Source of the DNA: a virus
Lineage: Duplodnaviria > Heunggongvirae > Uroviricota > Caudoviricetes
Virus record (IMG/VR): IMGVR_UViG_3300045988_156735
DNA: 30,204 bases
Reading direction: 5' to 3' (one strand)
Under the pieces are notes generated by a model, which made no database searches, was not told the origin of the DNA, and was given only the letters and a program-made list of their open reading frames with translations. Below are positions 3,332 to 30,204 of this stretch, in pieces. The translations under genes and the position numbers were made by a program. Each line of letters opens with the position of its first letter. Within the stretch, counting starts at the first letter, position 1.

Positions 3332-3606
3332 CTGGTTTGAAAGCCGTTTTGTCATTTATCGGCACCATTATATTGGTTGCATTCGGCGCATTTGGTTTTG
3401 GTCGTATGAAGGGGCGAGAAAAGGCCGAAGATGAAGCTGAAAAGCAGCGCATTAATGAGAATGCAGCCGCCGTAAAAGCCACTGCGGAGCGGCGTATAGA
3501 AGTGACAAAAGAGGTGGGGAATGTACAGCAGAGTGTTAACCATATGGCTGATGACGATGTTGATCGCGAGCTGCGGGAGTCGTGGAAGCGTCCCGGTGGT
3601 GGTTGA
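3328..3606 (+). CDS. Rz-like i-spanin
   Basis: 92 aa; ATG overlaps the endolysin stop (ATGA); N-terminal transmembrane helix (LKAVLSFIGTIILVAFGAFGF) then a charged coiled-coil-like region. Confidence 0.65.
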   Translation: MTGLKAVLSFIGTIILVAFGAFGFGRMKGREKAEDEAEKQRINENAAAVKATAERRIEVTKEVGNVQQSVNHMADDDVDRELRESWKRPGGG

Positions 3607-3730
3607 TACCGCCTGTGATTGGGTAAAGCCCATCTACCTGACTGATCACGATATCGATGTTATGGACCGCCAGACAAAGAAAGATATTCTGGCTCATAAC
3701 AGGGCATGGGAAATCAACTGCCCCAAGTAA
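3521..3730 (+). CDS. Rz1-like o-spanin lipoprotein, overlapping the 3-prime end of Rz in the +1 frame
   Basis: ORF starts inside Rz in another frame; signal peptide with lipobox LIASC (MYSRVLTIWLMTMLIASCGS); GAGGTGGGG upstream of ATG 3521. Confidence 0.6.
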   Translation: MYSRVLTIWLMTMLIASCGSRGSVPVVVDTACDWVKPIYLTDHDIDVMDRQTKKDILAHNRAWEINCPK

Positions 3731-3762
3731 TATATATTTCTATAATTATATAAATATATAGT
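3731..3762. repeat. AT-rich alternating TA block containing AATTATATAA, left boundary of the tRNA/methyltransferase cassette
   Basis: tatatatttctataattatataaatatata directly after the Rz1 stop; the same 10-mer recurs at 4872-4881. Confidence 0.5.
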
Positions 3763-3899
3763 TACAACATTCTATGCGCTTTTCTCATGAGCGCACGCAT
3801 CAACCATGTTTGTCTGATATGCCGCCGCGCCCAAAAATCCTGAATTTATTGGCTGGGATTTTCGTGCGCGGCGCCACACCAGACAAACAGATCAAATAT

Positions 3900-3975
3900 G
3901 GCCCCTTAGCTCAGTGGTTAGAGCAGGCGACTCATAATCGCACGGTCATCGGTTCAAATCCGGTAGGGGCCACCA
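3900..3975 (+). tRNA. tRNA with CAU anticodon (tRNA-Ile2-like; could be annotated tRNA-Met)
   Basis: 76-nt cloverleaf folded by hand: acceptor GGCCCCT/AGGGGCC, D-arm GCTC-AGTGGTTA-GAGC, anticodon arm GGCGA-CTCATAA-TCGCA, T-arm ATCGG-TTCAAAT-CCGGT, discriminator A and encoded CCA. The 5-prime half matches my memory of E. coli ileX. Confidence 0.85.
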
Positions 3976-4283
3976 ATTCACTCTCACACATAAAGATAAG
4001 CGCGGTGGAGTTACTTCCTTCGTGCTCATCTTTATGCGTGCCTGGTGCGCATTTCGGGCGAACGTGGGGCTAAGTTACAGGCAGGGCCTGTTATCCGCAA
4101 AGGGGTAAAAGCTGGAGCGGCACGGAACTGTAGCCGTGTTACCAAAACAGCGTTGTCGGGCGATATCCGGCACACAACAGGCAAGGGCATTAATCAGTCT
4201 GGTTAGTGCCCTTTTCGTTGTGTTTGCTGTAGAGCTGGCCAGCGTTATGACTGCCGGAGATAAGCGCCGGAGGCACAACTAAC

Positions 4284-4871
4284 ATGGAGGCAATTGCATT
4301 GTTTAATCTGATTTATGCAGATCCCCCCTGGGAATACAAAGACAAGTGTAAGGATGGGAATCGTGGAGCTGGTTTTAAGTATCCAACGATGAAAGCTGAG
4401 GAGATTGCTCGTATTCCTGTCTGGCAACTTGCTAATCCTGAATCGTGTTTGTTGGCCATGTGGTGGGTTCCGACTCAGCCAGAAGAAGCGTTGCTGGTGG
4501 TGAAAGCATGGGGGTTCAGGCTTATGACCATGAAGGGCTTCACATGGAACAAATGTGGTAGCCGACAGCCAGATAAGCTGGTGATGGGGATGGGGCATAT
4601 GACTCGTGCGAACAGTGAAGATTGCTTGTTTGCGGTAAAAGGCAAACTGCCGACCCGCCTTGATGCGGGGATCATTCAGTCGTTTACATCGCCTCGTCTG
4701 GAACATTCACGGAAGCCTGATGTGGTTCGTGACAAGCTGGTAAGACTGTTAGGTGATGTTCCTCGTATTGAGCTGTTTGCTCGCGGTGATTTACCTGATG
4801 GCTGGCATGGCTGGGGCAACCAGTGCAACGGAGGTATCCAGTTGCATGATGCTCTCTGGCAAGTGCCATAG
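4284..4871 (+). CDS. MT-A70-family N6-adenine DNA methyltransferase (orphan, no restriction partner seen)
   Basis: 195 aa with the catalytic DPPW tetrapeptide (LIYADPPWEY) near the N-terminus and layout typical of small phage MT-A70/Dam-like enzymes. Confidence 0.75.
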   Translation: MEAIALFNLIYADPPWEYKDKCKDGNRGAGFKYPTMKAEEIARIPVWQLANPESCLLAMWWVPTQPEEALLVVKAWGFRLMTMKGFTWNKCGSRQPDKLVMGMGHMTRANSEDCLFAVKGKLPTRLDAGIIQSFTSPRLEHSRKPDVVRDKLVRLLGDVPRIELFARGDLPDGWHGWGNQCNGGIQLHDALWQVP

Positions 4872-4900
4872 AATTATATAATTATAGATTTATATAAAAA
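4872..4900. repeat. AT-rich block containing AATTATATAA, right boundary of the tRNA/methyltransferase cassette
   Basis: aattatataattatagatttatataaaaa directly after the methyltransferase stop; shares a 10-mer with 3744-3753. Confidence 0.5.
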
Positions 4901-4983
4901 GTGCTTTACAGGTGGGAAAAAAATTCCTAAGGTTATACCCGAAACCGAGCGATACCCGCCCTGGTTAAACCGGAGATAACCCG

Positions 4984-5253
4984 ATGAAAGTACAAGACCG
5001 TGAAGTAGTAAAAAACCTCCTGCAATACCTGACCTCAAAAAACCTGACGGGCAGCGTTGAGTTCCGTGAAGCGTTAAAACATTTCAACGTCACTACGGTT
5101 TATCGTTGGGAAAACCAACATTCTGAAAGACCGTATGTGGTGGATGTTTTTGCGCCTGATATTGAGTGCGGTTTTGAGCGTCATTCATTCAAGAAGAAAC
5201 ATTCCGCTGATGTTTTTTGTGAGGTTGTATGTGCGGCAGGAGATGATGAGTGA
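4984..5253 (+). CDS. Hypothetical protein (89 aa), first gene of a two-gene overlapping pair
   Basis: GGAGA upstream of ATG 4984; stop overlaps the start of the next ORF (TGATG); no recognised motif. Confidence 0.5.
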   Translation: MKVQDREVVKNLLQYLTSKNLTGSVEFREALKHFNVTTVYRWENQHSERPYVVDVFAPDIECGFERHSFKKKHSADVFCEVVCAAGDDE

Positions 5254-5450
5254 TGCGTATTTCCTTCAAACGTGCGACTGAGCAGCAACGCAAAGAGTTC
5301 CTGGCTGATGATGTAGCGGCCGTTTATGACCTCATGAAAGAGGTTGTGGAATCAGGGAACTACACGGCGGCAAAGATGCTTAAACTGCAATTCTTGCTGG
5401 GCGATCTGAAATACAAATCCGAAGTTGTCGCCGGACGACGCGAGCATTAA
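5253..5450 (+). CDS. Hypothetical small protein (65 aa), second gene of the pair
   Basis: ATG 5253 overlapping the upstream stop; predicted helical, charged; followed by an intrinsic terminator. Confidence 0.45.
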   Translation: MRISFKRATEQQRKEFLADDVAAVYDLMKEVVESGNYTAAKMLKLQFLLGDLKYKSEVVAGRREH

Positions 5451-5472
5451 ACCGTAACGATAACGAACAACG

Positions 5473-5500
5473 AGCCTCGGCAATTGCCGGGGCTTTTTTA
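5473..5500 (+). terminator. Rho-independent terminator
   Basis: Near-perfect palindrome AGCCTCGGCAA/TTGCCGGGGCT centred on AATT, followed by TTTTTT. Confidence 0.6.
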
Positions 5501-5524
5501 CATCCAGACAAAGGAGAACATGGG

Positions 5525-5980
5525 ATGCCTTCGACAAGCACCAAAAAAGAAATGGCGATTAGTGATGTGCTTTACGCGCTTTCGATTATGTGTGACGGAG
5601 CAATGATGAGGATGAAAGTCCTCCATGAAGCATACGGAAAAAGTCACGATGAGGCAGCCAAAGAGTGCCTGAATGAGATTGTGGACTTCCTTGATAGTTA
5701 TCGGTCGATGATAGCTCTCGATAACCAGCCGCAAGCCGAAGAATGCCAGAAGCGCGAGTATAAAACGATATATGGGAATAAGTTCTCCTGTCTAAGCGAG
5801 TTGGCTGCAAAGGTGGCCGACATTCTGGAGAACAACGGCGGTCGAATGCGTCAGGTTAGCTGTCTGGCTGAATATGAATCTCTAATCATGTTAGTTGATT
5901 ATTTAGTTGATACCGGAGCTTTACAGCTCAACTGCGTAAGGCTATCTGGTCATCCGATAAAAATGAATGGAAGGATATAA
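5525..5980 (+). CDS. Hypothetical protein (151 aa)
   Basis: AAGGAG 8 nt upstream of ATG 5525; soluble, Cys-containing, no recognised motif. Confidence 0.5.
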   Translation: MPSTSTKKEMAISDVLYALSIMCDGAMMRMKVLHEAYGKSHDEAAKECLNEIVDFLDSYRSMIALDNQPQAEECQKREYKTIYGNKFSCLSELAAKVADILENNGGRMRQVSCLAEYESLIMLVDYLVDTGALQLNCVRLSGHPIKMNGRI

Positions 5981-5982
5981 CC

Positions 5983-6189
5983 GTGGACTTGCCGAGTGAT
6001 TTGTTCTGGTTTCCGCTTCCAATAAGAGATTTGTTGGTATTTCTGGCTGGCGCTTACGTCTGGAGAAAAGCGAAAGACACCTCGTTATCTTTGAGGTTTG
6101 TCTTAGCTATATCGGTAGGAACCGCGCTGGGGACGGCGTATCTCTTGACATTACTGGAGATATTCATTGAAGAATGGATAGTTTCATGA
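5983..6189 (+). CDS. Small membrane protein (68 aa, about two transmembrane helices)
   Basis: GTG start 3 nt after the previous stop; hydrophobic segments LLVFLAGAYVW and FVLAISVGTALGTAYLLTLL. Confidence 0.4.
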   Translation: MDLPSDLFWFPLPIRDLLVFLAGAYVWRKAKDTSLSLRFVLAISVGTALGTAYLLTLLEIFIEEWIVS

Positions 6190-6338
6190 ATGGTGTTGGC
6201 ATTTTTCTGATGGTTGTGGCCGTGTGTTTTTGTATCTCGCTGGTGGTTATCGCTGGTGTCCTGTGGCGCATCTTAGTGGCGCAGAGAGCTTTTCGGCGTA
6301 AGCGGGAGCAATTATTTATTGATAAATTTAGGCAGTAA
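6186..6338 (+). CDS. Small single-pass membrane peptide (50 aa), not in the supplied ORF track
   Basis: ATG 6186 overlaps the previous stop (ATGA); translation MNGVGIFLMVVAVCFCISLVVIAGVLWRILVAQRAFRRKREQLFIDKFRQ has one transmembrane helix then a basic tail. Confidence 0.4.
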   Translation: MNGVGIFLMVVAVCFCISLVVIAGVLWRILVAQRAFRRKREQLFIDKFRQ

Positions 6339-6425
6339 TTGGTCGATTAAAATGAGGCATAAATAAAACAATGTGTCTTTTTTTAAAGGTTGTGTAACAT
6401 TTGCGTTCCATTTAAGGAGGGTAAA

Positions 6426-6833
6426 ATGCGCACCGATCTAGATTATCTAAAAAAGATGCTGACTGTGTTTTTGGATTCAGAAAGCACGTTCATAACAGTA
6501 AATCAACTAAGAGACGCGGGGTTTGATATAGCCTCAGAAAAGGGCATGTTTCATTATATGCAATTGATTGAGCAAGGTTTTATCAGCAATATGAAGATGG
6601 AAACGCGTGATCCTCTGCGTCTTGGCTATGTTAATTTTTTGGCAGGAATGAGGACTGTTGATGTAGATATTAGATTGACTACAGAGGGACAGGATTTTGC
6701 CTGTGCACTAGAGAGCAAAGATGTTTTCGCTAGACTAAAAGAAATTAGCAATGAGCCATTGGCTGTTATGAAGGATGTTGGTGTAGAACTTCTCAAGTCA
6801 TTGGCAAAGAAGAAGTTTGGTTTATCTGATTAG
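6426..6833 (+). CDS. Hypothetical protein (136 aa), possibly winged-helix-like
   Basis: Strong RBS AAGGAGG 5 nt upstream of ATG 6426; AT-rich upstream region; intrinsic terminator directly downstream. Confidence 0.55.
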   Translation: MRTDLDYLKKMLTVFLDSESTFITVNQLRDAGFDIASEKGMFHYMQLIEQGFISNMKMETRDPLRLGYVNFLAGMRTVDVDIRLTTEGQDFACALESKDVFARLKEISNEPLAVMKDVGVELLKSLAKKKFGLSD

Positions 6834-6861
6834 TGCAGATACCTGTTTGCTATTTATTTAT

Positions 6862-6891
6862 AAAACCACCTGCGGGTGGTTTTGTTTTTTT
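6862..6891 (+). terminator. Rho-independent terminator
   Basis: AAACCACC - TGCG - GGTGGTTT hairpin followed by a T-rich run (tgttttttt). Confidence 0.7.
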
Positions 6892-6952
6892 AGCATTACA
6901 GCAGCTCTTGTGCTTACCAGGGGCTGCGATAATGCGCAAACCAAAGCTGCCT

Positions 6953-6996
6953 CATTAACTCCAGCTCGCTGTGGAGTTAATGCTGGTGGCTTTTTT
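6953..6996 (+). terminator. Second hairpin with T-run (possible tandem terminator or structured RNA)
   Basis: 11-bp perfect stem CATTAACTCCA/TGGAGTTAATG with 8-nt loop, then GCTGGTGGC and TTTTTT. Confidence 0.35.
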
Positions 6997-7125
6997 ATTA
7001 CTGGAAGGTGGGCGACCGCCGTCAGTTGCGACCTGACGACAGTCATTCATACCCACAGGGTGCCGTGGATACAAACCGAGGCCCACTTGCTTGCACAAGC
7101 GAGGGGATTTTAGCGGATAAACGGC

Positions 7126-7749
7126 ATGACAAAACATCTTAATGTGGTTTCTTTACCACTTTCTGTGTTGATTGGTTATGAAAAGAACGCTCGCACACAC
7201 TCCGTGGAGCAGGTAGATCAGATTGTTGCCAGCATACAGGAGTACGGATGGACTAATCCGATCCTGATAGACGAGAACAACGTTGTAATTGCTGGTCATG
7301 GTCGAATTGCTGCGGCCACTCAGTTGGGGATGGATGATGTTCCCTGCATTGTTCTGGAAGGGCTAACGGAGAATCAGAAGAAGGCATATCGTCTGGCCGA
7401 CAACCGTATTCCGCTGAATGCTGGTTGGGATGAAGAGCTGTTAAGCGCGGAGCTTGCAGATCTTGCGGCCGATGATTTTGCTCTGGACTCAATTGGTTTT
7501 ACTCAGCGCGAACTGGATAACTTATTGAGTGCGGCGGTCTACGATGACACAGAGGGTATGGATATCCCATTTGAGAAGGATGAGGCCAAATCAGGCGTAA
7601 AAGTTCAGTACCTGTCATTTGGAGGTCATAAAATCCCGGCAACGGATGAGGAAGCGGATCGTTTTGACTGCGCGGTGTCTCGTTATGTTGATGATAATGG
7701 CAGCTATATCGGATTTGTATCCGCATTGCTGGCTGGGGAGGTGTGCTGA
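7126..7749 (+). CDS. ParB-like N-terminal domain protein (paralog 1)
   Basis: 207 aa; ParB/Srx-type block ...NPILIDENNVVIAGHGRIAAATQLG...; about 60 percent identical by eye to the ORF at 10416-11006 over the N-terminal 100 aa. Confidence 0.65.
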   Translation: MTKHLNVVSLPLSVLIGYEKNARTHSVEQVDQIVASIQEYGWTNPILIDENNVVIAGHGRIAAATQLGMDDVPCIVLEGLTENQKKAYRLADNRIPLNAGWDEELLSAELADLAADDFALDSIGFTQRELDNLLSAAVYDDTEGMDIPFEKDEAKSGVKVQYLSFGGHKIPATDEEADRFDCAVSRYVDDNGSYIGFVSALLAGEVC

Positions 7750-9122
7750 TGCTTCACCTCAATTACGACATAACGCACCTACGCGGCGCGGAATATAACC
7801 CGCGTTTTATCGGTGAGGATGATCTTGCGAGGCTGGCGGAAAGCGTCAGGGAGCTGGGGCTTGTGAAGCCATTGATAGTGCGCGGCGATTTGCTGGTGGC
7901 GGGACACCAAAGGACGAAGGCGCTACGTAAGTTGGGAATAACGCGTGCTGCGGTGTATGTGTTGCCCTGTGAAACGACGGTATACGACGAAGTACGGTTT
8001 AACCAACTGCATAACGGAACGGATTTTGATAGCGGAGATGAGCGTTGCAGGGTGTCCGGTCTGGAAGATAAGCATGGTTTTGTTCAGGTATCGGCAAGCC
8101 AGATCTCAGGCAATATGCGCGCGAAAATGGCATATGTTCGAAAGAACATAGCGGAACTGGTTATCAAGTATGGTCCGTGGGGTGGTTGTGTTGCTACTCA
8201 GTCTGGTGAGGTTATTCACTGTGCTCAGTATGCATTAGCAGCGAAAATGACGCGCACACCGCTAACGGTGTTTGTGATCCCTGATGTTGAGAAGGAAAAA
8301 TACCAAAGTTATCTGAATAAAACTTATGGTGTATTTGAGTATTCTCATCTGGAGAAAACAACATACATCCAGACGTATGCGCAGCTTATGCGGTTGCGTA
8401 ATGGTGGCAGCCTGAAATCAAATCTGTATGAGTCGTTGATCCTCCCGATCATTGCCAAGACGCCAAGAGGAATTGATTTTGGTTCGGGGCAGGGAGACTA
8501 CGCGCGAATGCTCAGGGCAAAGGGATATAACCTGCATGATCTCGAGCTTTTCCGCCGTAAGGGCGCTGGAAACACTCTGGATAGGGCCGCAACAAACCGG
8601 ATGATTGATACGCTGGTGGACGACTTAAAAACGCGAGGGCGTTATGACTACGTGATTTGCGATAGCGTTTTGAACTCGGTCGATAGTGTCGAGGCTGAAT
8701 GGTCCGTTCTGACGGTTCTAAAAGGCCTGTGTAAAGCTGGTGGGTCAATATTCTTTTCTGGTCGTAGCCGTGGAGAGCTGGAAACAGTCCTGAAGCAAAC
8801 ACAAGCGGCGAGTTCCAAAAGCCGGCTTTATTTTATTGATCATAACGGTTTTACCGCGTTGTACCGGAAGGGGCACTGGTTTTACCAGAAGTTTCACTCT
8901 GATGATGAAGTGAAGCAGTTGTGTCGTGTACATGGTTTCAGGATTAAGCGGTCAATATTCAACTGTAAGAGCTGGTATTTGCACGTCATTAACGATGATT
9001 CCCTTAGTTGGGCGAGTCTGGAGAAAGCTGTTCGTTTTGAGTTTGAGTTGCCGTTGCCTGGTGGTTCAACAATCGGACGATCTGATGATGTGCTGGCGGC
9101 TTTCCGGCCGTTGATTAAGTAG
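7749..9122 (+). CDS. Fusion protein: ParB-like N-terminal domain plus C-terminal class-I SAM-methyltransferase-like domain
   Basis: ATG 7749 overlaps the upstream stop (ATGA) with GGGGAGG 9 nt upstream; N-terminus LIVRGDLLVAGHQRTKALRKLG (ParB-like); C-terminal half has IDFGSGQGDY (glycine-rich SAM motif I-like) and YDYVICDSVLNSV; no DPPY/NPPY-type motif seen. Confidence 0.55.
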   Translation: MLHLNYDITHLRGAEYNPRFIGEDDLARLAESVRELGLVKPLIVRGDLLVAGHQRTKALRKLGITRAAVYVLPCETTVYDEVRFNQLHNGTDFDSGDERCRVSGLEDKHGFVQVSASQISGNMRAKMAYVRKNIAELVIKYGPWGGCVATQSGEVIHCAQYALAAKMTRTPLTVFVIPDVEKEKYQSYLNKTYGVFEYSHLEKTTYIQTYAQLMRLRNGGSLKSNLYESLILPIIAKTPRGIDFGSGQGDYARMLRAKGYNLHDLELFRRKGAGNTLDRAATNRMIDTLVDDLKTRGRYDYVICDSVLNSVDSVEAEWSVLTVLKGLCKAGGSIFFSGRSRGELETVLKQTQAASSKSRLYFIDHNGFTALYRKGHWFYQKFHSDDEVKQLCRVHGFRIKRSIFNCKSWYLHVINDDSLSWASLEKAVRFEFELPLPGGSTIGRSDDVLAAFRPLIK

Positions 9123-10048: not shown

Positions 10049-10419
10049 GGTTAAAAGTTGCGGTAAAAGAAATTTACTCATCTCATTGAAAAATATCGGG
10101 AAAACGTGATTTTTTGCTGTATTTGTGCTGGTAAAAAGAAAGTAGAAAATTTTCTTTTAGATCATCAAGATACGCGCAGATCTTTAACCAATGTGATGTT
10201 GTTCTGATAAAAATCGTTATAAATCATGCAAATACATCCAATCTTTTAACCAAAACACCATCTCAAGATCCTTTTTACTTATAAAAACTTAATAAAATCA
10301 GATGATTATGCTGGTTTGTGTGATTTTTTATGAGTAAAAAGATCGTCATTTTTCTCTTTTAGTATCAATAAGTTAAACAGTTTTCTTTAACCTGTTGTGT
10401 TATGGCGGTTAAAAAATGG
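10049..10419. promoter_or_regulatory. AT-rich spacer with iterated TCTTTAACC-type motifs and GATC sites (candidate packaging site, protein-binding array or promoter)
   Basis: Direct repeats TCTTTAACCAA (10181), ATCTTTTAACCAAAA (10241), TTCTTTAACC (10383); inverted GGTTAA copies at 10049 and 10407; GATC at 10160, 10179, 10267, 10341; no credible ORF. Confidence 0.4.
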
Positions 10420-11006
10420 CTCTAAAAATCGAATATTTACCAGTCGGTAAGCTGCTCAGATACGCCAAAAATTCACGGACTCATTCAGATGAGCAGGTTG
10501 AACAGTTGGTGAACAGTATCCGTGAGTTCGGTTTCACTAATCCTGTGCTGATCGATGAAAAGAATGAACTGATTGCGGGGCATGGTCGGCTTGCAGCAGC
10601 CGAAATTCTGGAAATGGATAAAGTTCCGGCGATTCGGTTGAGTAACCTTTCTGAAAAACAGAAGAAGGCTTACAGGATTGCAGATAACAAGCTGGCCTTA
10701 AATGCTGGCTGGGATATGCAGCTTCTGGCCGAAGAAGTCAAAGAGTTAATGGATGATGATTTTGATATTGATCTGCTTGGGTTTAATGATGCAGAGCTTG
10801 ACGAAATGTTAAGCGATGAACAGCCGCAGGAAGAAGACGATAATTCTTCCCCTGTTGTTCAAATTAAGTACCTGTCTATTGATAAAGAACGTATTCCCGC
10901 GACGGATATGGAAATTGCATTGTTGCTGGATGTTTATCGTCAGTACCACGACGCGCATGAAACGCATGAGGGATTTGTTCAGTATCTTGCTAATGGTTGC
11001 AAGTAA
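10416..11006 (+). CDS. ParB-like N-terminal domain protein (paralog 2), immediately upstream of the terminase genes
   Basis: 196 aa; ...NPVLIDEKNELIAGHGRLAAAEILE...; stop overlaps the small terminase start (TAATG). Confidence 0.65.
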   Translation: MALKIEYLPVGKLLRYAKNSRTHSDEQVEQLVNSIREFGFTNPVLIDEKNELIAGHGRLAAAEILEMDKVPAIRLSNLSEKQKKAYRIADNKLALNAGWDMQLLAEEVKELMDDDFDIDLLGFNDAELDEMLSDEQPQEEDDNSSPVVQIKYLSIDKERIPATDMEIALLLDVYRQYHDAHETHEGFVQYLANGCK

Positions 11007-21711: not shown

Positions 21712-24504
21712 ATGGCCAGCAATAAGAACTTTAAGCTGGCTTTTGAAATTGGCGGCAAAGTTGCCGCCTCTCTCCCCAAAAGTTTTACTACAGCTAATCA
21801 GGCTGTTGCTAAATTAAATGCCGAGCTTGCTGGATTAACGAAAGAACATGGGGAAATTCAAAAGCTACAATCTGTAAAAGTAAAGGTTGGACAGACTGCC
21901 CTCGAATATCATAAAGCTGCCGCTCGCGTTGAAGAGTTACAGAAGCAAATAAAAAACACGGCCAATCCAACCAGAGCGATGCTTCGTGACTTTGAGAAGG
22001 CAAAAACACATTCATCGAATTTACGAGCATCACTACGTTCTCAGCGTGAAGAACTGGCCGCTTTAAAGTCTGCCTATCAGGGAGCTGATACATCTGCCAG
22101 AGCTTTGGCCTCAAGAGAGAAAGAGCTTAAAGCCAGCATTGATCGTAATCGTGAGGCTCAGGTCCGTAGCGTTGAGCAGGTTAACCGCTACAGAACGGCT
22201 TTGGCTTTAGCCAGAGCAAATGTTCAGCAAGTGAAAAAACAGCAGGAGGAACTTAACCGGGCATTAGAAAAACAACGTATTGATAAAATTAACAGCTATA
22301 AAAATGCGTTGGCTGAAGCACGGAAAAATGTTCTTGCAGTAAAACGTGCTCAGGAGGAGTTAAACCGCGCGTTGGAAAGGCAGCGTGAATTGAAGCGAGA
22401 GCATCTTGGTGAGGCAAAGAGTCAACTTGTAAGGTCAGGATTACAAACTGGTGCTGTAGCGGCTGGTGCATTTGCTGCTGCTAACAATGCAGCAAATTTC
22501 AATCGTGAAAACAAAATGATTGGTCTTACGGCAGATATGAAGCCGGAAGAAGTTCAGGCGATGGGGCAGGCGATGCTTGTTACCGGAACGGCCACCAACC
22601 AGTTTGCATCTGATATTCAGGCCGCTCAGGGTTTTCTCGTCGCTGCTGGGCAGGATTATAAAGAGGCTCAGGCGAATCTACTAACTATTGGGCGAACAGC
22701 TACAGCTACTGGCTCTGATATCCTCGATGTCTCGAAAGCATCATTTACATTAAGTGACTCATTGAAGATTGATCCATCTCAAATGAAGTCTGCAATGGGG
22801 ATTCTGGTTCAGGCAGGGAAAGAGGGAAACTTTGAATTTAAAGATATGGCCAAAAATCTTCCTGTGCTTGGTGCTCAGTTCCAGGCATTAAAAATGGGAG
22901 GTAAAGAAGCCGCCGCGACGATGGGGGCAGCTTTGCAGATAGCTCGCAAAGGTGCTGCAACTTCGGATGAGGCTGCTAATAATATGAACAACTTTTTGGC
23001 GAAAATACTTTCCCCTGAAACACTAAAAAAAGCAAAGAAAAATTTCGGTGTAGATTTATATAAAATTGTCACAACAGCGCAGAAAAAAGGGAAGAATCCA
23101 TTCGAAGCTGCAATGCATTCTGTCATGAAAATGACTAAGAACGGAGATCAGAAGTTACTTGGTGAGCTATTTGGCGATATGCAGGTTCAGAACTTTGTTC
23201 GTCCGATGATTCAAAACTGGAAGGAATACCAGAGAATCAAAGCAACATCTCTTGGTGCTGGAAGTGCTGTTATTGACCGCGATTTTGCCAACATAACGAA
23301 AGACAATGCGGAGCGATTGAAACAATTACGTATTCAGGCTAGCAATGCATCATTAAGTTTTGGTCAGGCCTTGCAACCTGCTTTGAATGCCGCGCTTAGT
23401 GTTTTGGTTCCGCTGATTACAAAAATTAGTGAATTTGTAGCTAACAACCCCAATTTTGTGTCTCAGGTTGTGATGGCGGCAGGTGCGTTTCTAACCATGA
23501 AAAGTGTGGTTATAGCGTGTAGGGTAGCTATGCTGGCTTTATCTGTAGCGACAAAGCTAACACCCTTCGGGTGGATTCAGATGGCTATATCTGCGCTGGT
23601 TGCCGCAGGAATATTGCTCTATCAGAACTGGGATAAGATCAGAGATTATGCTGTCAGAGTTTGGCCTTCTGTTAAGGAATATACAGTTAAATCGTTTGAA
23701 GCTATAAAAAACTTTATCTTAAACTTTGATCTCAATGGATGGATTATATCTATGTTTGGTAAAGCATGGGATTATCTTTCCAACATAAACTGGAGTTCGG
23801 CAGGAGTAAGAATTTACAGTACATTAATTAGTGCTTTTAAATGGATGTCTCCGCTTCCGTTCTTAATTAAAGCATTTAAACTTACAACAAATTACCTTTC
23901 TGGTATTAACTGGAGCGAAACAGGAAAGAAAATCATAGATACACTGGTATCTGTTTTTATGCGTTTTTCACCAGTTGGACTCTTTATAAGAGCATTCCAA
24001 TCTGTAACGGCTTATTTGTCTGGAATAAACTGGAGTGAGTCAGGCGCAAAAATAATTGAGACGTTAATCACTGGGATAAAATCAAAAGCAAATGCTTTAA
24101 TTAATGAAGTGAAAGGCGTTTTTTCTTCTGTACGTGAGTATTTACCGTTCTCTGACGCGAAAAAAGGTCCATTCTCACAGCTAACAAAGTCAGGTGGTGC
24201 AATAATGACTACTCTGGCATCAGGCGTTAGCAGGAATAACAGCTTACAGAATGCAATAGCAACCAAGTTCGGGCAATCAAATTTATCACCTCACGGGATA
24301 TCTGCCGCCGGGACTTCTGGACCTCGCCAGAACGTTAATGCTGTGACTGGTGGAATAACCTATTCACCTGTAATCAATCTTCCGGCTGGTTCACCAAAGG
24401 AAACTGAGGCGGCAGCTAAAAGAGCATTAGATGCGGGATATTCTGATTTTGAGAAGAAATTGAGTGCTCATATGTTCCAACAACGGAGATTAAGTTTTGG
24501 ATGA
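21712..24504 (+). CDS. Tail tape measure protein
   Basis: 930 aa; coiled-coil N-terminus with duplicated EELNRALE units, central hydrophobic segments, three tandem YLSGINWSE.G.KII.TL repeats. Confidence 0.85.
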   Translation: MASNKNFKLAFEIGGKVAASLPKSFTTANQAVAKLNAELAGLTKEHGEIQKLQSVKVKVGQTALEYHKAAARVEELQKQIKNTANPTRAMLRDFEKAKTHSSNLRASLRSQREELAALKSAYQGADTSARALASREKELKASIDRNREAQVRSVEQVNRYRTALALARANVQQVKKQQEELNRALEKQRIDKINSYKNALAEARKNVLAVKRAQEELNRALERQRELKREHLGEAKSQLVRSGLQTGAVAAGAFAAANNAANFNRENKMIGLTADMKPEEVQAMGQAMLVTGTATNQFASDIQAAQGFLVAAGQDYKEAQANLLTIGRTATATGSDILDVSKASFTLSDSLKIDPSQMKSAMGILVQAGKEGNFEFKDMAKNLPVLGAQFQALKMGGKEAAATMGAALQIARKGAATSDEAANNMNNFLAKILSPETLKKAKKNFGVDLYKIVTTAQKKGKNPFEAAMHSVMKMTKNGDQKLLGELFGDMQVQNFVRPMIQNWKEYQRIKATSLGAGSAVIDRDFANITKDNAERLKQLRIQASNASLSFGQALQPALNAALSVLVPLITKISEFVANNPNFVSQVVMAAGAFLTMKSVVIACRVAMLALSVATKLTPFGWIQMAISALVAAGILLYQNWDKIRDYAVRVWPSVKEYTVKSFEAIKNFILNFDLNGWIISMFGKAWDYLSNINWSSAGVRIYSTLISAFKWMSPLPFLIKAFKLTTNYLSGINWSETGKKIIDTLVSVFMRFSPVGLFIRAFQSVTAYLSGINWSESGAKIIETLITGIKSKANALINEVKGVFSSVREYLPFSDAKKGPFSQLTKSGGAIMTTLASGVSRNNSLQNAIATKFGQSNLSPHGISAAGTSGPRQNVNAVTGGITYSPVINLPAGSPKETEAAAKRALDAGYSDFEKKLSAHMFQQRRLSFG
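23770..24130 (+). repeat. Three tandem repeats of about 120 bp inside the tape measure gene
   Basis: Units containing aactggag(t/c)(t/g)(c/a)(g/a) at 23789, 23909 and 24029, encoding INWS(S/E)(A/T/S)G. Confidence 0.6.
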
Positions 24505-28835: not shown

Positions 28836-30204
28836 GTGAGTAAATTATTATTTACGATGACTGACGCCGGGCGTCAGGAGCTGGTTAATGCCAACAAAAC
28901 AGGAACAAATAAAGTTGAGATTGTTTCTGTTGGTTTAGGTAGTAGATATTATGTCACGTCAACTTCACAAACAAATATAACAAACGAAATAAAACGACTT
29001 ACCACAATAGGTGGCAAAGTTGTTTCCCCTGATACAATTCATGTAACGGCGAAGGATGATAGTAAAGATGAGTATGTTGTCCATACAATAGGATTGTATA
29101 CAAATAAGGGAACGTTGTTTGCTGTATACTCGCAAGAACAAGCAATAATAAATAAAGCATCATCTACTATTGCTTTAATATCAAGTGACATAGCAATCAA
29201 GACTCTTGATACTAAAAATATTACATTTGGTGATATTGAGTTTATTAATCCTCCCGCAACCGAAACTGTTGTTGGGGTTGCAAGATTTGCCAATGAACAA
29301 GAAATTGATGACGGTACAGATGATTCCCTTGCTGTTTCAGCAAAGCGGCTTAAGCAAGCCATTGTGAAACATGAACAATCACGTAATCATCCTGATGCAA
29401 CTTTAACCTCAAAAGGCTTTGTTCAACTTAGCAGCGCCACCAATAGCTCGTCTGAAACGCTTGCTGCGACGCCTAAGGCTGTTAAGGCAGCATATGACCT
29501 GGCTAATGGCAAATACACCGCACAGGACGCTACCACAGCGCGAAAAGGGATTGTTCAGCTCAGTAGTGCCACCAACAGCACGTCTGAAACGCTAGCAGCA
29601 ACACCAAAGGCTGTTAAGGCAGCGTATGATCTTGCGGCCGGAAAGGCTCCGTCCAATCACACGCATTCGTGGGAGCAGATAACAAATGTGCCTGTAGCTT
29701 CACTGACTGTAAGGGGAATAACTCAGCTCAGTAGTTCCACCAACAGCACGTCTGAAACACTGGCCGCGACATCGAAAGCGGTCAAGGCGGTAATGGATGA
29801 AACGAACAAGAAAGCGCCCTTAAACAGTCCTGCGTTGACCGGAACGCCAACAACGCCAACTGCGCGACAGGGAACGAATAATACCCAAATCGCAAGCACG
29901 GCTTTCGTTATGGCTGCGATCGCTGCCCTCGTGGACTCGTCACCTGACGCACTGAATACGCTGAACGAGTTAGCGGCGGCGCTGGGAAACGACCCGAATT
30001 TTGCGACCACCATGACTAACGCGCTTGCGGGTAAGCAACCGAAAGATGCCACCCTGACGGCGCTGGCCGGGCTTGCTACTGCGGCAGACAAGTTTCCGTA
30101 TTTTACGGGGAATGATGTCGCCAGCCTGGCACCCCTGACAAAAGTCGGGCGGGATATTCTTGCGAAATCGACCGTTGCTGCCGTTATCGAATACCTCGGT
30201 TTAC
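28836..30204 (+). CDS. Tail fiber protein, P2 gpH-like N-terminal part (3-prime end beyond the window)
   Basis: GTG 28836 with AAGGA 7 nt upstream; three copies of the fiber repeat (G/L)(I/F)(V/T)QLSS(A/S)TNS(T/S)SETLAAT(P/S)KAVKA; NSPALTGTPTTPTARQGTNNTQIASTAFV collar-like segment; no stop before 30204. Confidence 0.8.
   Translation, partial: MSKLLFTMTDAGRQELVNANKTGTNKVEIVSVGLGSRYYVTSTSQTNITNEIKRLTTIGGKVVSPDTIHVTAKDDSKDEYVVHTIGLYTNKGTLFAVYSQEQAIINKASSTIALISSDIAIKTLDTKNITFGDIEFINPPATETVVGVARFANEQEIDDGTDDSLAVSAKRLKQAIVKHEQSRNHPDATLTSKGFVQLSSATNSSSETLAATPKAVKAAYDLANGKYTAQDATTARKGIVQLSSATNSTSETLAATPKAVKAAYDLAAGKAPSNHTHSWEQITNVPVASLTVRGITQLSSSTNSTSETLAATSKAVKAVMDETNKKAPLNSPALTGTPTTPTARQGTNNTQIASTAFVMAAIAALVDSSPDALNTLNELAAALGNDPNFATTMTNALAGKQPKDATLTALAGLATAADKFPYFTGNDVASLAPLTKVGRDILAKSTVAAVIEYLGL
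29416..29805 (+). repeat. Three imperfect tandem repeats of about 90 bp inside the tail fiber gene
   Basis: Units beginning 29416, 29539 and 29713 share (c/t)agcag(c/t)(g/t)ccaccaa(t/c)agc(t/a)cgtctgaaac(g/a)ct(t/a/g)gc(t/a/c)gc(g/a)ac(g/a). Confidence 0.7.

What the first reader, a model, noticed from the sequence alone, without database searches (positions are those of the whole stretch)
4984..5500. Two-gene overlapping mini-operon of unknown function, terminator-bounded
An 89-aa and a 65-aa ORF are translationally coupled (TGATG overlap), preceded by an RBS and followed by a strong intrinsic terminator. Neither protein matches a family I recognise. Size and arrangement fit toxin-antitoxin pairs or small phage defense or anti-defense effectors carried as morons.
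Basis: inference. Interest (0 to 1): 0.5.

Follow-up and report, generated by a model that had tools for sequence, protein, structure and literature searches.

The report
Conserved two-gene accessory operon, phage-plasmid
Two small overlapping genes with their own promoter and terminator are a real, conserved but individually dispensable part of a 48-kb E. coli phage-plasmid; they are not a toxin-antitoxin pair and most likely act early after entry against host defences, though that role is untested.

Summary
ORF1 (4984-5253, 89 aa) and ORF2 (5253-5450, 65 aa) overlap in TGATG, follow a GGAG ribosome-binding site and end at a strong terminator (-18.8 kcal/mol). The pair recurs in five diverged lineages of one 46-50-kb phage-plasmid family, which includes the plasmid of E. 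coli ATCC 25922. It always follows an MT-A70 methyltransferase gene, and dN/dS is 0.07-0.37.

New points:
- The 115-121-nt promoter, leader and start codon upstream of ORF1 occur three times per plasmid at 98-99% identity. Each copy is preceded by tandem 8-bp AT-rich repeats that also flank parA.
- ORF1 is a stand-alone copy of an N-terminal domain. Other phages fuse it to at least three different C-terminal regions and place it first in early operons. Serratia plasmids carry it beside methylase and ArdB/KlcA anti-restriction genes.
- ORF2 is a lineage-restricted helical hairpin.
- Natural plasmids carry an ORF1 deletion with ORF2 intact, and ORF2 nonsense or frameshift alleles with ORF1 intact. 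This refutes the toxin-antitoxin reading.

No known family, defence system or solved fold matches. My best guess is an early, establishment-phase counter-defence or host-interaction module. Interest is moderate.

The parts
4868..4899 (+). Array of four tandem 8-bp AT-rich units (ATAGAATT ATATAATT ATAGATTT ATATAAAA) directly upstream of the -35 hexamer. It is a candidate UP element or operator.
   Evidence: Arrays of at least 3 such units occur at 7 places on the 48-kb plasmid, against 0 in 100 Markov simulations. The places include upstream of all three promoter copies and both flanks of parA.
4905..4933 (+). Putative sigma-70 promoter: -35 TTTACA (4905-4910), 17-nt spacer, -10 TAAGGT (4928-4933).
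   Evidence: The window version is below the scanner's threshold. The homologous site reads TTTACA-17-TATGGT and is called by the scanner in L007 and L028. The intergenic region has 92% mean column identity across lineages in which ORF1 is only 55-66% identical in DNA.
4867..4987 (+). Promoter, 5' leader, RBS and ATG cassette, present in three near-identical copies per plasmid.
   Evidence: blastn found 121 nt at 98.3% upstream of a 126-aa gene followed by an HTH gene, and 102 nt at 99% upstream of a DUF3560 gene on NZ_CP062206. Nearly all listed related plasmids show 3 matching places per record. There is no Rfam match and the leader folds weakly, z = -1.6.
4984..5253 (+). ORF1, 89 aa, acidic (pI 5.8; 4.5-5.1 in relatives). 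It is a stand-alone copy of a modular N-terminal domain.
   Evidence: It matches PHROG 6143 positions 1-88 of 218. The AF2 model has pLDDT 89 with topology alpha-alpha-beta-beta-beta-alpha. Relatives of 176-280 aa carry at least three different C-terminal regions. dN/dS is 0.16-0.37.
5238..5242 (+). AGGAG Shine-Dalgarno sequence for ORF2, inside the end of ORF1.
   Evidence: Seen in the sequence. A GGAG or GGGAG is conserved upstream of the overlap in L006, L007 and L015.
5253..5450 (+). ORF2, 65 aa, mildly basic (pI 9.0). It is a two-helix hairpin restricted to this phage-plasmid family.
   Evidence: It matches PHROG 6621. The AF2 model has pLDDT 91 with helices at 10-34 and 39-59. An exhaustive profile search of 1.84 billion representatives found its own cluster, one diverged full-length relative, and fragments or frameshift products of the same gene. 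dN/dS is 0.07-0.29.
5472..5499 (+). Intrinsic terminator closing the unit.
   Evidence: A terminator at the same position but with different stem sequences follows ORF2 in L006, L007, L015 and L028.
4284..4871 (+). MT-A70 family DNA methyltransferase gene, the conserved upstream neighbour. No terminator lies between it and ORF1.
   Evidence: Pfam PF05063, E = 2.4e-23. It sits directly upstream of the pair in the window, L006, L007, L009 and L028. The previous + strand terminator is at 4183-4213.

Best explanation
The region is a small, autonomously transcribed accessory operon of a 46-50-kb myovirus-type phage-plasmid of Escherichia.

Shown:
- A conserved sigma-70-type promoter with an AT-rich upstream array, a ~43-nt leader and a GGAG site drives ORF1.
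- ORF2 starts on the last base of the ORF1 stop codon.
- A strong terminator ends the transcript, so the pair can be expressed independently of the surrounding genes.
- Both proteins are under purifying selection across genera.
- Either one can be lost in nature without loss of the plasmid, and phage genomes lacking ORF1 have been deposited.

Inferred:
- The pair is expressed when the element enters or establishes in a cell. It would be co-regulated with the two other operons that carry the same promoter-leader cassette.
- The tandem 8-bp repeats may be bound by the ParG-like ribbon-helix-helix protein encoded after parA.
- ORF1 is an acidic binding domain that acts on a host or defence component. 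Other phages attach different C-terminal regions to the same domain.
- ORF2 is its lineage-specific helical partner or a second effector.
- The most likely role is counter-defence (restriction evasion or similar) alongside the adjacent orphan methyltransferase. It is not addiction and not structure.
For: Anatomy and conservation.

Three-copy promoter-leader: and 3 places per record.

8-bp arrays shared with parA. There is a precedent for a ribbon-helix-helix partition protein that binds repeat arrays overlapping several promoters (PMC9499535; PMC3130281).

Contexts of ORF1 relatives:
- First gene after a cI-like gene, a hairpin with a T run that I read as a terminator (the scanner did not list it), and a TTGACA-17-TAGATT promoter in a lambdoid prophage.
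- Within the first genes of the operon that diverges from the terminase genes in Erwinia Pavtokvirus phages and relatives; a small 78-87 aa ORF precedes it.
- Beside RecE/RecT genes.
- On Serratia plasmids, directly after an N6_Mtase-domain gene and 3 kb upstream, on the same strand, of a PF03230 Antirestrict gene.
- In the window and four other lineages, directly after an MT-A70 methyltransferase gene.

Protein properties: ORF1 is acidic and folded with high confidence. Its relatives carry variable C-terminal regions on a conserved head.

Non-essentiality.
Against: - No functional datum exists. PADLOC holds defence systems, not anti-defence proteins, so its silence is neutral.
- The neighbourhood argument rests on few independent contexts.
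- The timing of the promoter is unknown. Repeats shared with parA could equally mean expression in the plasmid state, which would fit a host-protecting (defence or exclusion) role.
- Interaction between ORF1 and ORF2 is not shown. ORF2 shows no sequence relation to the C-terminal regions of long ORF1 relatives.
Confidence: 0.4

Rival explanations
1. Prophage-state protective module (superinfection exclusion or anti-phage defence). It would be expressed from the plasmid during lysogeny as a moron and benefit the host.
For: - The promoter-genes-terminator layout is embedded among lytic genes.
- The upstream 8-bp array is the same repeat that flanks parA, a gene needed in the plasmid state.
- Loss-of-function alleles segregate among plasmids, as expected for accessory cargo.
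Against: - There are no PADLOC hits.
- The pair is fixed at one position in all five lineages and has backbone composition, unlike sporadic morons.
- ORF1 relatives sit at the head of early lytic operons, including in Erwinia phages deposited as free phage genomes.
- On Serratia plasmids they lie beside anti-restriction genes, not defence genes.
Confidence: 0.2
2. Small DNA-binding regulators of the phage-plasmid's own gene expression, for example control of the methyltransferase or of the lysis-lysogeny switch.
For: - ORF2 is basic, with a short N-terminal segment followed by two helices, loosely like a ribbon-helix-helix protein.
- In one prophage the ORF1 relative occupies the slot next to the repressor.
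Against: - ORF1 is acidic, pI 4.5-5.8.
- The scores are at noise level, and PH-domain halves score higher.
- The first helix of ORF2 is 25 residues, about twice the length I recall for ribbon-helix-helix proteins.
- Knockouts of either gene persist in otherwise intact plasmids.
- No Pfam HTH or RHH model matches.
Confidence: 0.12
3. Type II toxin-antitoxin or abortive-infection pair, with one product toxic and the other its antidote.
For: There are two small overlapping genes, an acidic upstream product and a basic downstream product, carried on a plasmid.
Against: - Natural alleles remove either partner alone with the promoter intact. The ORF1 deletion fused to ORF2 is found in at least 3 E. 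coli plasmids and 2 phage genomes. ORF2 E15* and a codon-10 frameshift occur with ORF1 intact; the frameshift is probably in three assemblies of one strain, judged from match length.
- There is no homology to any toxin or antitoxin family.
- The promoter is shared with two unrelated operons, so it is not an autoregulated private promoter.
- The ORF1 domain occurs fused or alone without ORF2 in many replicons.
- ORF2 exists only in this family.
- The plasmid already carries a RelE/ParE-type pair elsewhere.
Confidence: 0.03

Closest known systems
Phage morons (promoter-gene-terminator units within late regions of temperate phages; concept of Hendrix and colleagues, cited from my own knowledge)
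   Same: It is an autonomous unit with its own sigma-70-type promoter and a strong terminator. It sits between the lysis and packaging modules, and the genes are dispensable.
   Different: It is present at the same position in every lineage examined, and its base composition equals the backbone. Its promoter is one of three identical copies on the replicon rather than a private one.
Omega regulon of plasmid pSM19035, and ParG/parH of TP228 (ribbon-helix-helix partition proteins that bind arrays of short repeats overlapping several promoters; PMC9499535, PMC3130281)
   Same: Arrays of three or four contiguous short direct repeats lie at the parA promoter and at several other promoters of the same replicon. 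A small protein that reads as a disordered tail plus beta-alpha-alpha is encoded right after parA.
   Different: The repeat unit here is 8 bp and almost pure A/T. Binding has not been tested, and the 82-aa protein matches no Pfam or PDB entry. This concerns the regulation of the pair, not what the two proteins do.
PHROG 6143 proteins of Erwinia Pavtokvirus phages (PEp14 gp63, Pavtok gp62, Stean gp6; function unknown)
   Same: ORF1 aligns with their N-terminal ~90 residues at 37-40% identity. The shared motifs are DRxVVxxLL, HFN(I/V)T, VDV and ER..F.
   Different: Those proteins are 226-227 aa and carry a C-terminal domain that the window lacks. They are not followed by an ORF2 homologue or preceded by a methyltransferase gene.
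Anti-restriction islands of plasmid leading regions (ArdB/KlcA, PF03230)
   Same: Stand-alone ORF1-like genes on Serratia plasmids lie in same-strand arrays with an N6_Mtase-domain gene, DUF1281 and a PF03230 gene. In the window an orphan methyltransferase gene is the immediate neighbour.
   Different: Neither ORF1 nor ORF2 has any sequence or fold similarity to ArdA, ArdB or KlcA. The link is by neighbourhood only.
Type II toxin-antitoxin modules
   Same: Two small overlapping genes on a plasmid, with products of opposite charge.
   Different: Either gene is lost alone in nature, there is no family homology, the promoter is shared rather than private, and the distribution is restricted and syntenic.

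Membership tests
Type II toxin-antitoxin system | Two small adjacent co-transcribed genes | tested here: met
   TGATG overlap, a single promoter and a single terminator.
Type II toxin-antitoxin system | One product is toxic and needs the other for neutralisation, so the antidote gene cannot be lost alone | tested here: not met
   The test is indirect. The ORF1 deletion with ORF2 intact and ORF2 E15* or frameshift with ORF1 intact both persist in complete plasmids with an intact promoter.
Type II toxin-antitoxin system | Homology of at least one partner to a known toxin or antitoxin superfamily | tested here: not met
   No Pfam, NCBIfam, PADLOC or PDB sequence hits. The fold matches are generic.
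Type II toxin-antitoxin system | Private, autoregulated promoter-operator | tested here: not met
   The same 102-121-nt promoter-leader occurs at 98-99% identity in front of two unrelated operons.
Moron (autonomous accessory unit in a temperate phage) | Own promoter and own terminator | tested here: met
   A conserved TTTACA-17-TA(A/T)GGT promoter and a terminator at -18.8 kcal/mol. Both are sequence predictions; no transcript data are available.
Moron (autonomous accessory unit in a temperate phage) | Sporadic presence among close relatives, often with deviant base composition | tested here: not met
   The pair is present at the same place in five lineages. GC is 0.43 and 0.49, against 0.44 for the window. 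The segment after the terminator is the variable one.
Known anti-phage defence systems (PADLOC-DB 2.0) | Match to a model of a defence protein | tested here: not met
   No hit at E <= 1 for ORF1, ORF2 or the two downstream proteins.
PHROG 6143 / PHROG 6621 (phage protein families of unknown function) | Significant profile match | tested here: met
   ORF1 scores E = 4.1e-52 but covers only positions 1-88 of 218. ORF2 scores E = 1.2e-48 over the full length.
Ribbon-helix-helix DNA-binding proteins (considered for ORF2) | Short N-terminal strand, helix A of about 12-15 residues (from my knowledge), turn, helix B; match to RHH profiles | tested here: not met
Anti-restriction / anti-defence proteins | Demonstrated inhibition of a defence system, or homology to a protein with that activity | not testable with these tools
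   Only neighbourhood evidence exists: MT-A70, N6_Mtase and PF03230 neighbours, and early-operon positions. No library of anti-defence proteins was available.

The most novel reading that the evidence does not exclude
The ORF1 fold would define an undescribed family of entry-phase phage and plasmid proteins. It would be a conserved acidic 'head' domain that docks on a host or defence target. Different elements would pair it with different effector modules, either fused (at least three C-terminal types) or translationally coupled (ORF2 here, a 274-aa protein on Serratia plasmids). It recurs next to orphan DNA methyltransferase genes. In this phage-plasmid its expression would be wired, through a thrice-repeated promoter-leader and 8-bp repeat arrays, to the plasmid partition protein. 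That would link plasmid maintenance and counter-defence in one regulon.
Probability: 0.15. Interest if true: 0.6.

Novelty: new member of a known kind. Interest (0 to 1): 0.36.

Why it matters
The element is common. It is found in 74 of 5,426 complete E. coli genomes, and it is the 48.5-kb plasmid of the quality-control strain ATCC 25922. Natural phage variants with and without ORF1 exist. The pair can therefore be tested at once with existing material.

If ORF1 proves to be a counter-defence domain, it would annotate a family spread over phage-plasmids, lambdoid prophages, Erwinia phages and Serratia plasmids.

The repeated promoter-leader with partition-type repeat arrays would be a compact example of how a phage-plasmid coordinates scattered operons. 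If nothing comes of it, this is one more pair of small phage ORFs of unknown function, now safely excluded from the toxin-antitoxin class.

Tried and rejected
- **Family scans.** Pfam, NCBIfam and PADLOC scans of both proteins and their neighbours gave nothing above noise.
- **PDB by sequence.** Profile searches of PDB sequences found nothing significant.
- **Gene-fission idea.** I tested whether ORF2 is a split-off version of the C-terminal regions of long ORF1 relatives. hhalign probabilities were at most 0.5%.
- **RNA tests.** Rfam found no family in the conserved leader, and it folds weakly, z = -1.6. A local fold that masks the ORF2 ribosome-binding site is no better than shuffles, z = -0.4.
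- **Literature.** The protein accessions and phage names appear in no paper. My guesses that the element belongs to the pSLy3 or 'pO111' groups were wrong or unsupported. pSLy3 belongs to the SSU5 supercommunity, whose elements I recall as ~100 kb, and pO111 is an IncF virulence plasmid.
- **ATCC 25922 allele.** A 1-nt length difference made me suspect an ORF1 frameshift in ATCC 25922. It lies in the leader, and ORF1 is intact there.
- **Frameshifted ORF1 products.** Products from the T6 run at 5213-5218 exist in the protein database (P0003, P0004). I could not tell real alleles from homopolymer sequencing errors, so I do not use them.

Full report
**What the window is.** The region matches Yersinia phage vB_YpM_39 at 98%. 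At 90-99% it matches sequences in 74 of 5,426 complete E. coli genomes, almost all on circular 46-50-kb plasmids. One of these is the 48.5-kb plasmid of E. coli ATCC 25922. A full copy, NZ_CP062206, carries RepA, ParA, an XRE/S24 repressor and a RelE/ParE pair. It also has a complete myovirus set: terminase, portal, capsid, sheath, tube, tape measure and baseplate. It is therefore a phage-plasmid.

In the window, + strand terminators at 2077-2104, 4183-4213, 5472-5495 and 6860-6885 cut the region between early genes and packaging genes into units. These are:
- the end of an early-type operon;
- the lysis cassette plus a tRNA;
- MT-A70 methyltransferase plus the two ORFs;
- a variable block;
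- the ParB-like and terminase genes.

**The observation.** ORF1 (4984-5253, 89 aa) and ORF2 (ATG 5253-5450, 65 aa) overlap in TGATG. GGAG precedes ORF1 by 8 nt and AGGAG precedes ORF2 by 10 nt. The terminator has a 10-bp stem and a T run, at -18.8 kcal/mol and z = -5.6.

Chance ORFs of this size abound, so the case for real genes is comparative. The same pair occurs in four further lineages:
- an ENA metagenome contig, L006;
- Hafnia MAG contigs, L007-L012;
- a Logan contig, L015;
- an IMG/VR contig, L028.

Protein identities to the window run from 75% down to 43%. Each copy has a 1- or 4-nt stop/start overlap and a terminator at the same place built from different stem sequences. dN/dS is 0.16-0.37 for ORF1 and 0.07-0.29 for ORF2.

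**Regulatory anatomy.** The 112-nt spacer between MT-A70 and ORF1 has 92% mean column identity across lineages whose ORF1 DNA is only 55-66% identical. It reads as follows:
- four tandem 8-bp AT-rich units at 4868-4899;
- TTTACA at 4905-4910;
- a 17-nt spacer;
- TAAGGT at 4928-4933, which is TATGGT in other lineages, where the scanner calls it a promoter;
- a ~43-nt leader, then GGAG and ATG.

The whole cassette, up to and including ATGA, occurs three times on the plasmid at 98-99% identity. The other two copies lie in front of a DUF3560 gene that heads an eight-gene early-type operon, and in front of a 126-aa gene followed by an HTH gene. Nearly all listed related plasmids show three matching places. 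The leader matches no Rfam family and folds weakly.

Arrays of at least three of the 8-bp units occur at seven places on the plasmid, against none in 100 simulations. They lie upstream of the three promoter copies, after the DUF3560 gene, after the lysis cassette (window 3728-3759, opposite orientation), upstream of parA, and between parA and the next gene.

That next gene encodes 82 residues that I read as a disordered basic tail plus strand-helix-helix. This is the build of ParG and omega, but no profile confirms it. In pSM19035, omega binds arrays of 7-bp repeats that overlap three promoters and double as centromeres, and at least four contiguous repeats are needed (PMC9499535). ParG binds arrays of tetramer boxes with AT-rich spacers (PMC3130281). 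By analogy, the ORF1-ORF2 promoter may belong to a regulon tied to the partition protein. This is inference.

**The proteins.** Neither matches Pfam, NCBIfam, PADLOC or any PDB sequence. Both fall in PHROG families of unknown function.

ORF1:
- It covers only the first 88 of 218 profile positions of PHROG 6143.
- Searches seeded with Erwinia phage relatives found proteins of 176-280 aa that share its ~90 N-terminal residues at 37-51% identity. These carry at least three unrelated C-terminal regions. Stand-alone forms of 79-97 aa also exist.
- AlphaFold2 models it with pLDDT 89 as alpha-alpha-beta-beta-beta-alpha.
- It is acidic, pI 4.5-5.8.

ORF2:
- An exhaustive profile search of 1.84 billion representatives found its own cluster, one 43%-identical full-length relative, and fragments or frameshift products of the same gene.
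- It is absent from 185,579 species-representative genomes.
- In PLSDB it occurs on 56 non-mobilizable plasmids, 55 of them from Escherichia.
- It shows no relation to the C-terminal regions of long ORF1 relatives.

**Test of the toxin-antitoxin idea.** Nature has made the knockouts.
- **ORF1 lost, ORF2 kept.** Phages vB_YpM_41 and vB_YpM_44 and at least three E. coli plasmids lack 5008-5252. This 245-nt deletion joins ORF1 codons 1-8 in frame to the ORF2 ATG, so ORF2 keeps a start signal.
- **ORF2 lost, ORF1 kept.** Plasmid pMB9698_3 has G5295T, which gives ORF2 E15*. pMB17626_3 of strain 405 lacks G5282, a frameshift in codon 10. Two further assemblies of that strain give the same match length, so they probably carry the same allele. 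ORF1 is intact in both plasmids read.
- **Promoter.** The promoter-leader is intact in all of these plasmids.

So neither protein is needed to neutralise the other at native expression. Four further points agree:
- The promoter is shared, not private.
- Neither protein is homologous to a toxin or antitoxin family.
- ORF1 relatives are widespread without ORF2.
- The plasmid carries a RelE/ParE pair elsewhere.

Together these leave the toxin-antitoxin reading at a few per cent.

**Is it a moron?** It has the promoter-genes-terminator build. But it is fixed at one position after MT-A70 in every lineage, and its GC content (0.43 and 0.49) matches the backbone. The hypervariable stretch is the one after the terminator (5496-7125), which holds different genes in each lineage. 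I would call it a conserved accessory operon rather than a moron in the strict sense.

**What it most likely does.** The only functional leads are neighbourhoods.
- In a Rac-like lambdoid prophage, the ORF1-domain gene follows the cI-like gene, a hairpin with a T run that I read as a terminator (the scanner did not list it), and a strong operator-flanked promoter. It is the first gene of the early leftward operon, ahead of KilR.
- In Erwinia Pavtokvirus phages and relatives, it is among the first genes of the operon diverging from the terminase genes.
- In another phage contig, it lies just upstream of RecE/RecT.
- On Serratia plasmids, a stand-alone 94-aa copy directly follows an N6_Mtase-domain gene and overlaps by 4 nt a 274-aa gene. 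It lies in a same-strand array with DUF1281 and a PF03230 (ArdB/KlcA) anti-restriction gene.
- In the phage-plasmid, it directly follows an orphan MT-A70 methyltransferase gene.

These contexts are all typical of genes used on entry into a new cell. Two of them pair the domain with unrelated orphan DNA methylase genes.

I therefore commit, at about 0.4, to an entry- or establishment-phase module that acts on host or defence proteins. ORF1 would be the conserved acidic binding domain, and ORF2 its lineage-specific coupled partner or a second effector.

The rivals are:
- a lysogen-expressed protective module (0.2), favoured if the parA-type repeats mean expression in the plasmid state;
- small DNA-binding regulators (0.12);
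- a toxin-antitoxin pair (0.03).

The remainder is 'something else'.

**Novelty and interest.** The pair is unannotated and its families are undescribed beyond PHROG numbers, but small phage ORFs of unknown function are ordinary. What lifts it somewhat is fourfold:
- a modular ORF1 domain with coherent entry-phase contexts;
- the thrice-repeated promoter-leader with partition-type repeat arrays;
- natural single-gene knockouts;
- presence in a standard laboratory strain, which makes decisive experiments cheap.

I rate it a new member of a known kind, with interest 0.36.

Noticed in passing
window 3728-3759 (minus orientation) and 4868-4899; plasmid NZ_CP062206 record 3605-3636, 3677-3708, 4386-4409, 8747-8778, 46740-46763, 47949-47972: Tandem 8-bp AT-rich repeats (ATA[GT]A[AT]TT) form arrays at seven or eight intergenic places on the 48-kb plasmid, against none in simulations. 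The places include both flanks of parA. The 82-aa protein encoded after parA reads as a ParG/omega-like ribbon-helix-helix protein with a disordered basic tail. The arrays may be its centromere or operator sites.
   Followed up: partly
L003 131-232 and L014 8659-8779 (outside the window); window 4867-4987: The promoter-leader-ATG cassette of ORF1 is triplicated on the plasmid at 98-99% identity. The copies stand in front of three unrelated operons: DUF3560, a 126-aa gene followed by an HTH gene, and ORF1-ORF2. Identity stops exactly after ATGA.
   Followed up: partly
window 5496-7125: The segment between the ORF2 terminator and the ParB_N gene is hypervariable. In the window it holds a 151-aa protein, two small membrane-like ORFs and a DUF2513-like protein. 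Every other lineage and the Yersinia phages carry different genes there. It is bounded by terminators at 5472-5495 and 6860-6885.
   Followed up: partly
window 3900-3975 and 3801-3892: ARAGORN calls this tRNA gene tRNA-Met (anticodon CAT), but RefSeq annotates it as tRNA-Ile, so it is possibly a lysidine-modified tRNA-Ile2. The stretch just upstream gave sub-threshold Rfam microRNA-precursor matches, which suggests a long hairpin. I did not fold it.
   Followed up: no
window 7126-9122 and 10416-11006: Three ParB/Srx N-terminal-domain genes lie ahead of the terminase gene. One is fused to a methyltransferase domain (Methyltransf_23 in relatives). With MT-A70, that gives two DNA-methylase-type genes within 5 kb.
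   Followed up: no
protein P0017 (Logan contig): This is a natural chimera. ORF1 codons 1-8 are joined to ORF2 residues 1-50, then to the last 40 residues of the DUF2513-like protein (window 6390-6833). A further deletion has removed the terminator and the variable block.
   Followed up: no
window 5213-5218: A T6 run lies near the end of ORF1. Database proteins P0003 and P0004 (98 aa; P0004 on 29 contigs) are frameshift products at this run that read into ORF2. They could be real alleles or homopolymer sequencing errors.
   Followed up: partly
window 29411-29803 and 23769-24053: Diverged tandem direct repeats lie in the tail-fibre region (three 93-nt copies, 65-83% identical, 132-168 nt apart) and in the tape-measure gene (three 45-nt copies, 120 nt apart).
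   Followed up: no
L040 1825-5409 (Serratia fonticola plasmid pSR07_2) and L041 5828-10755 (pSF002): The gene order N6_Mtase-domain protein, ORF1-like 94 aa, 4-nt-overlapping 274-aa protein, DUF1281 is seen on pSR07_2. On pSF002 the ORF1-like gene, a 248-aa gene and DUF1281 are followed by an ArdB/KlcA gene 3 kb downstream. This looks like an anti-restriction island.
   Followed up: partly
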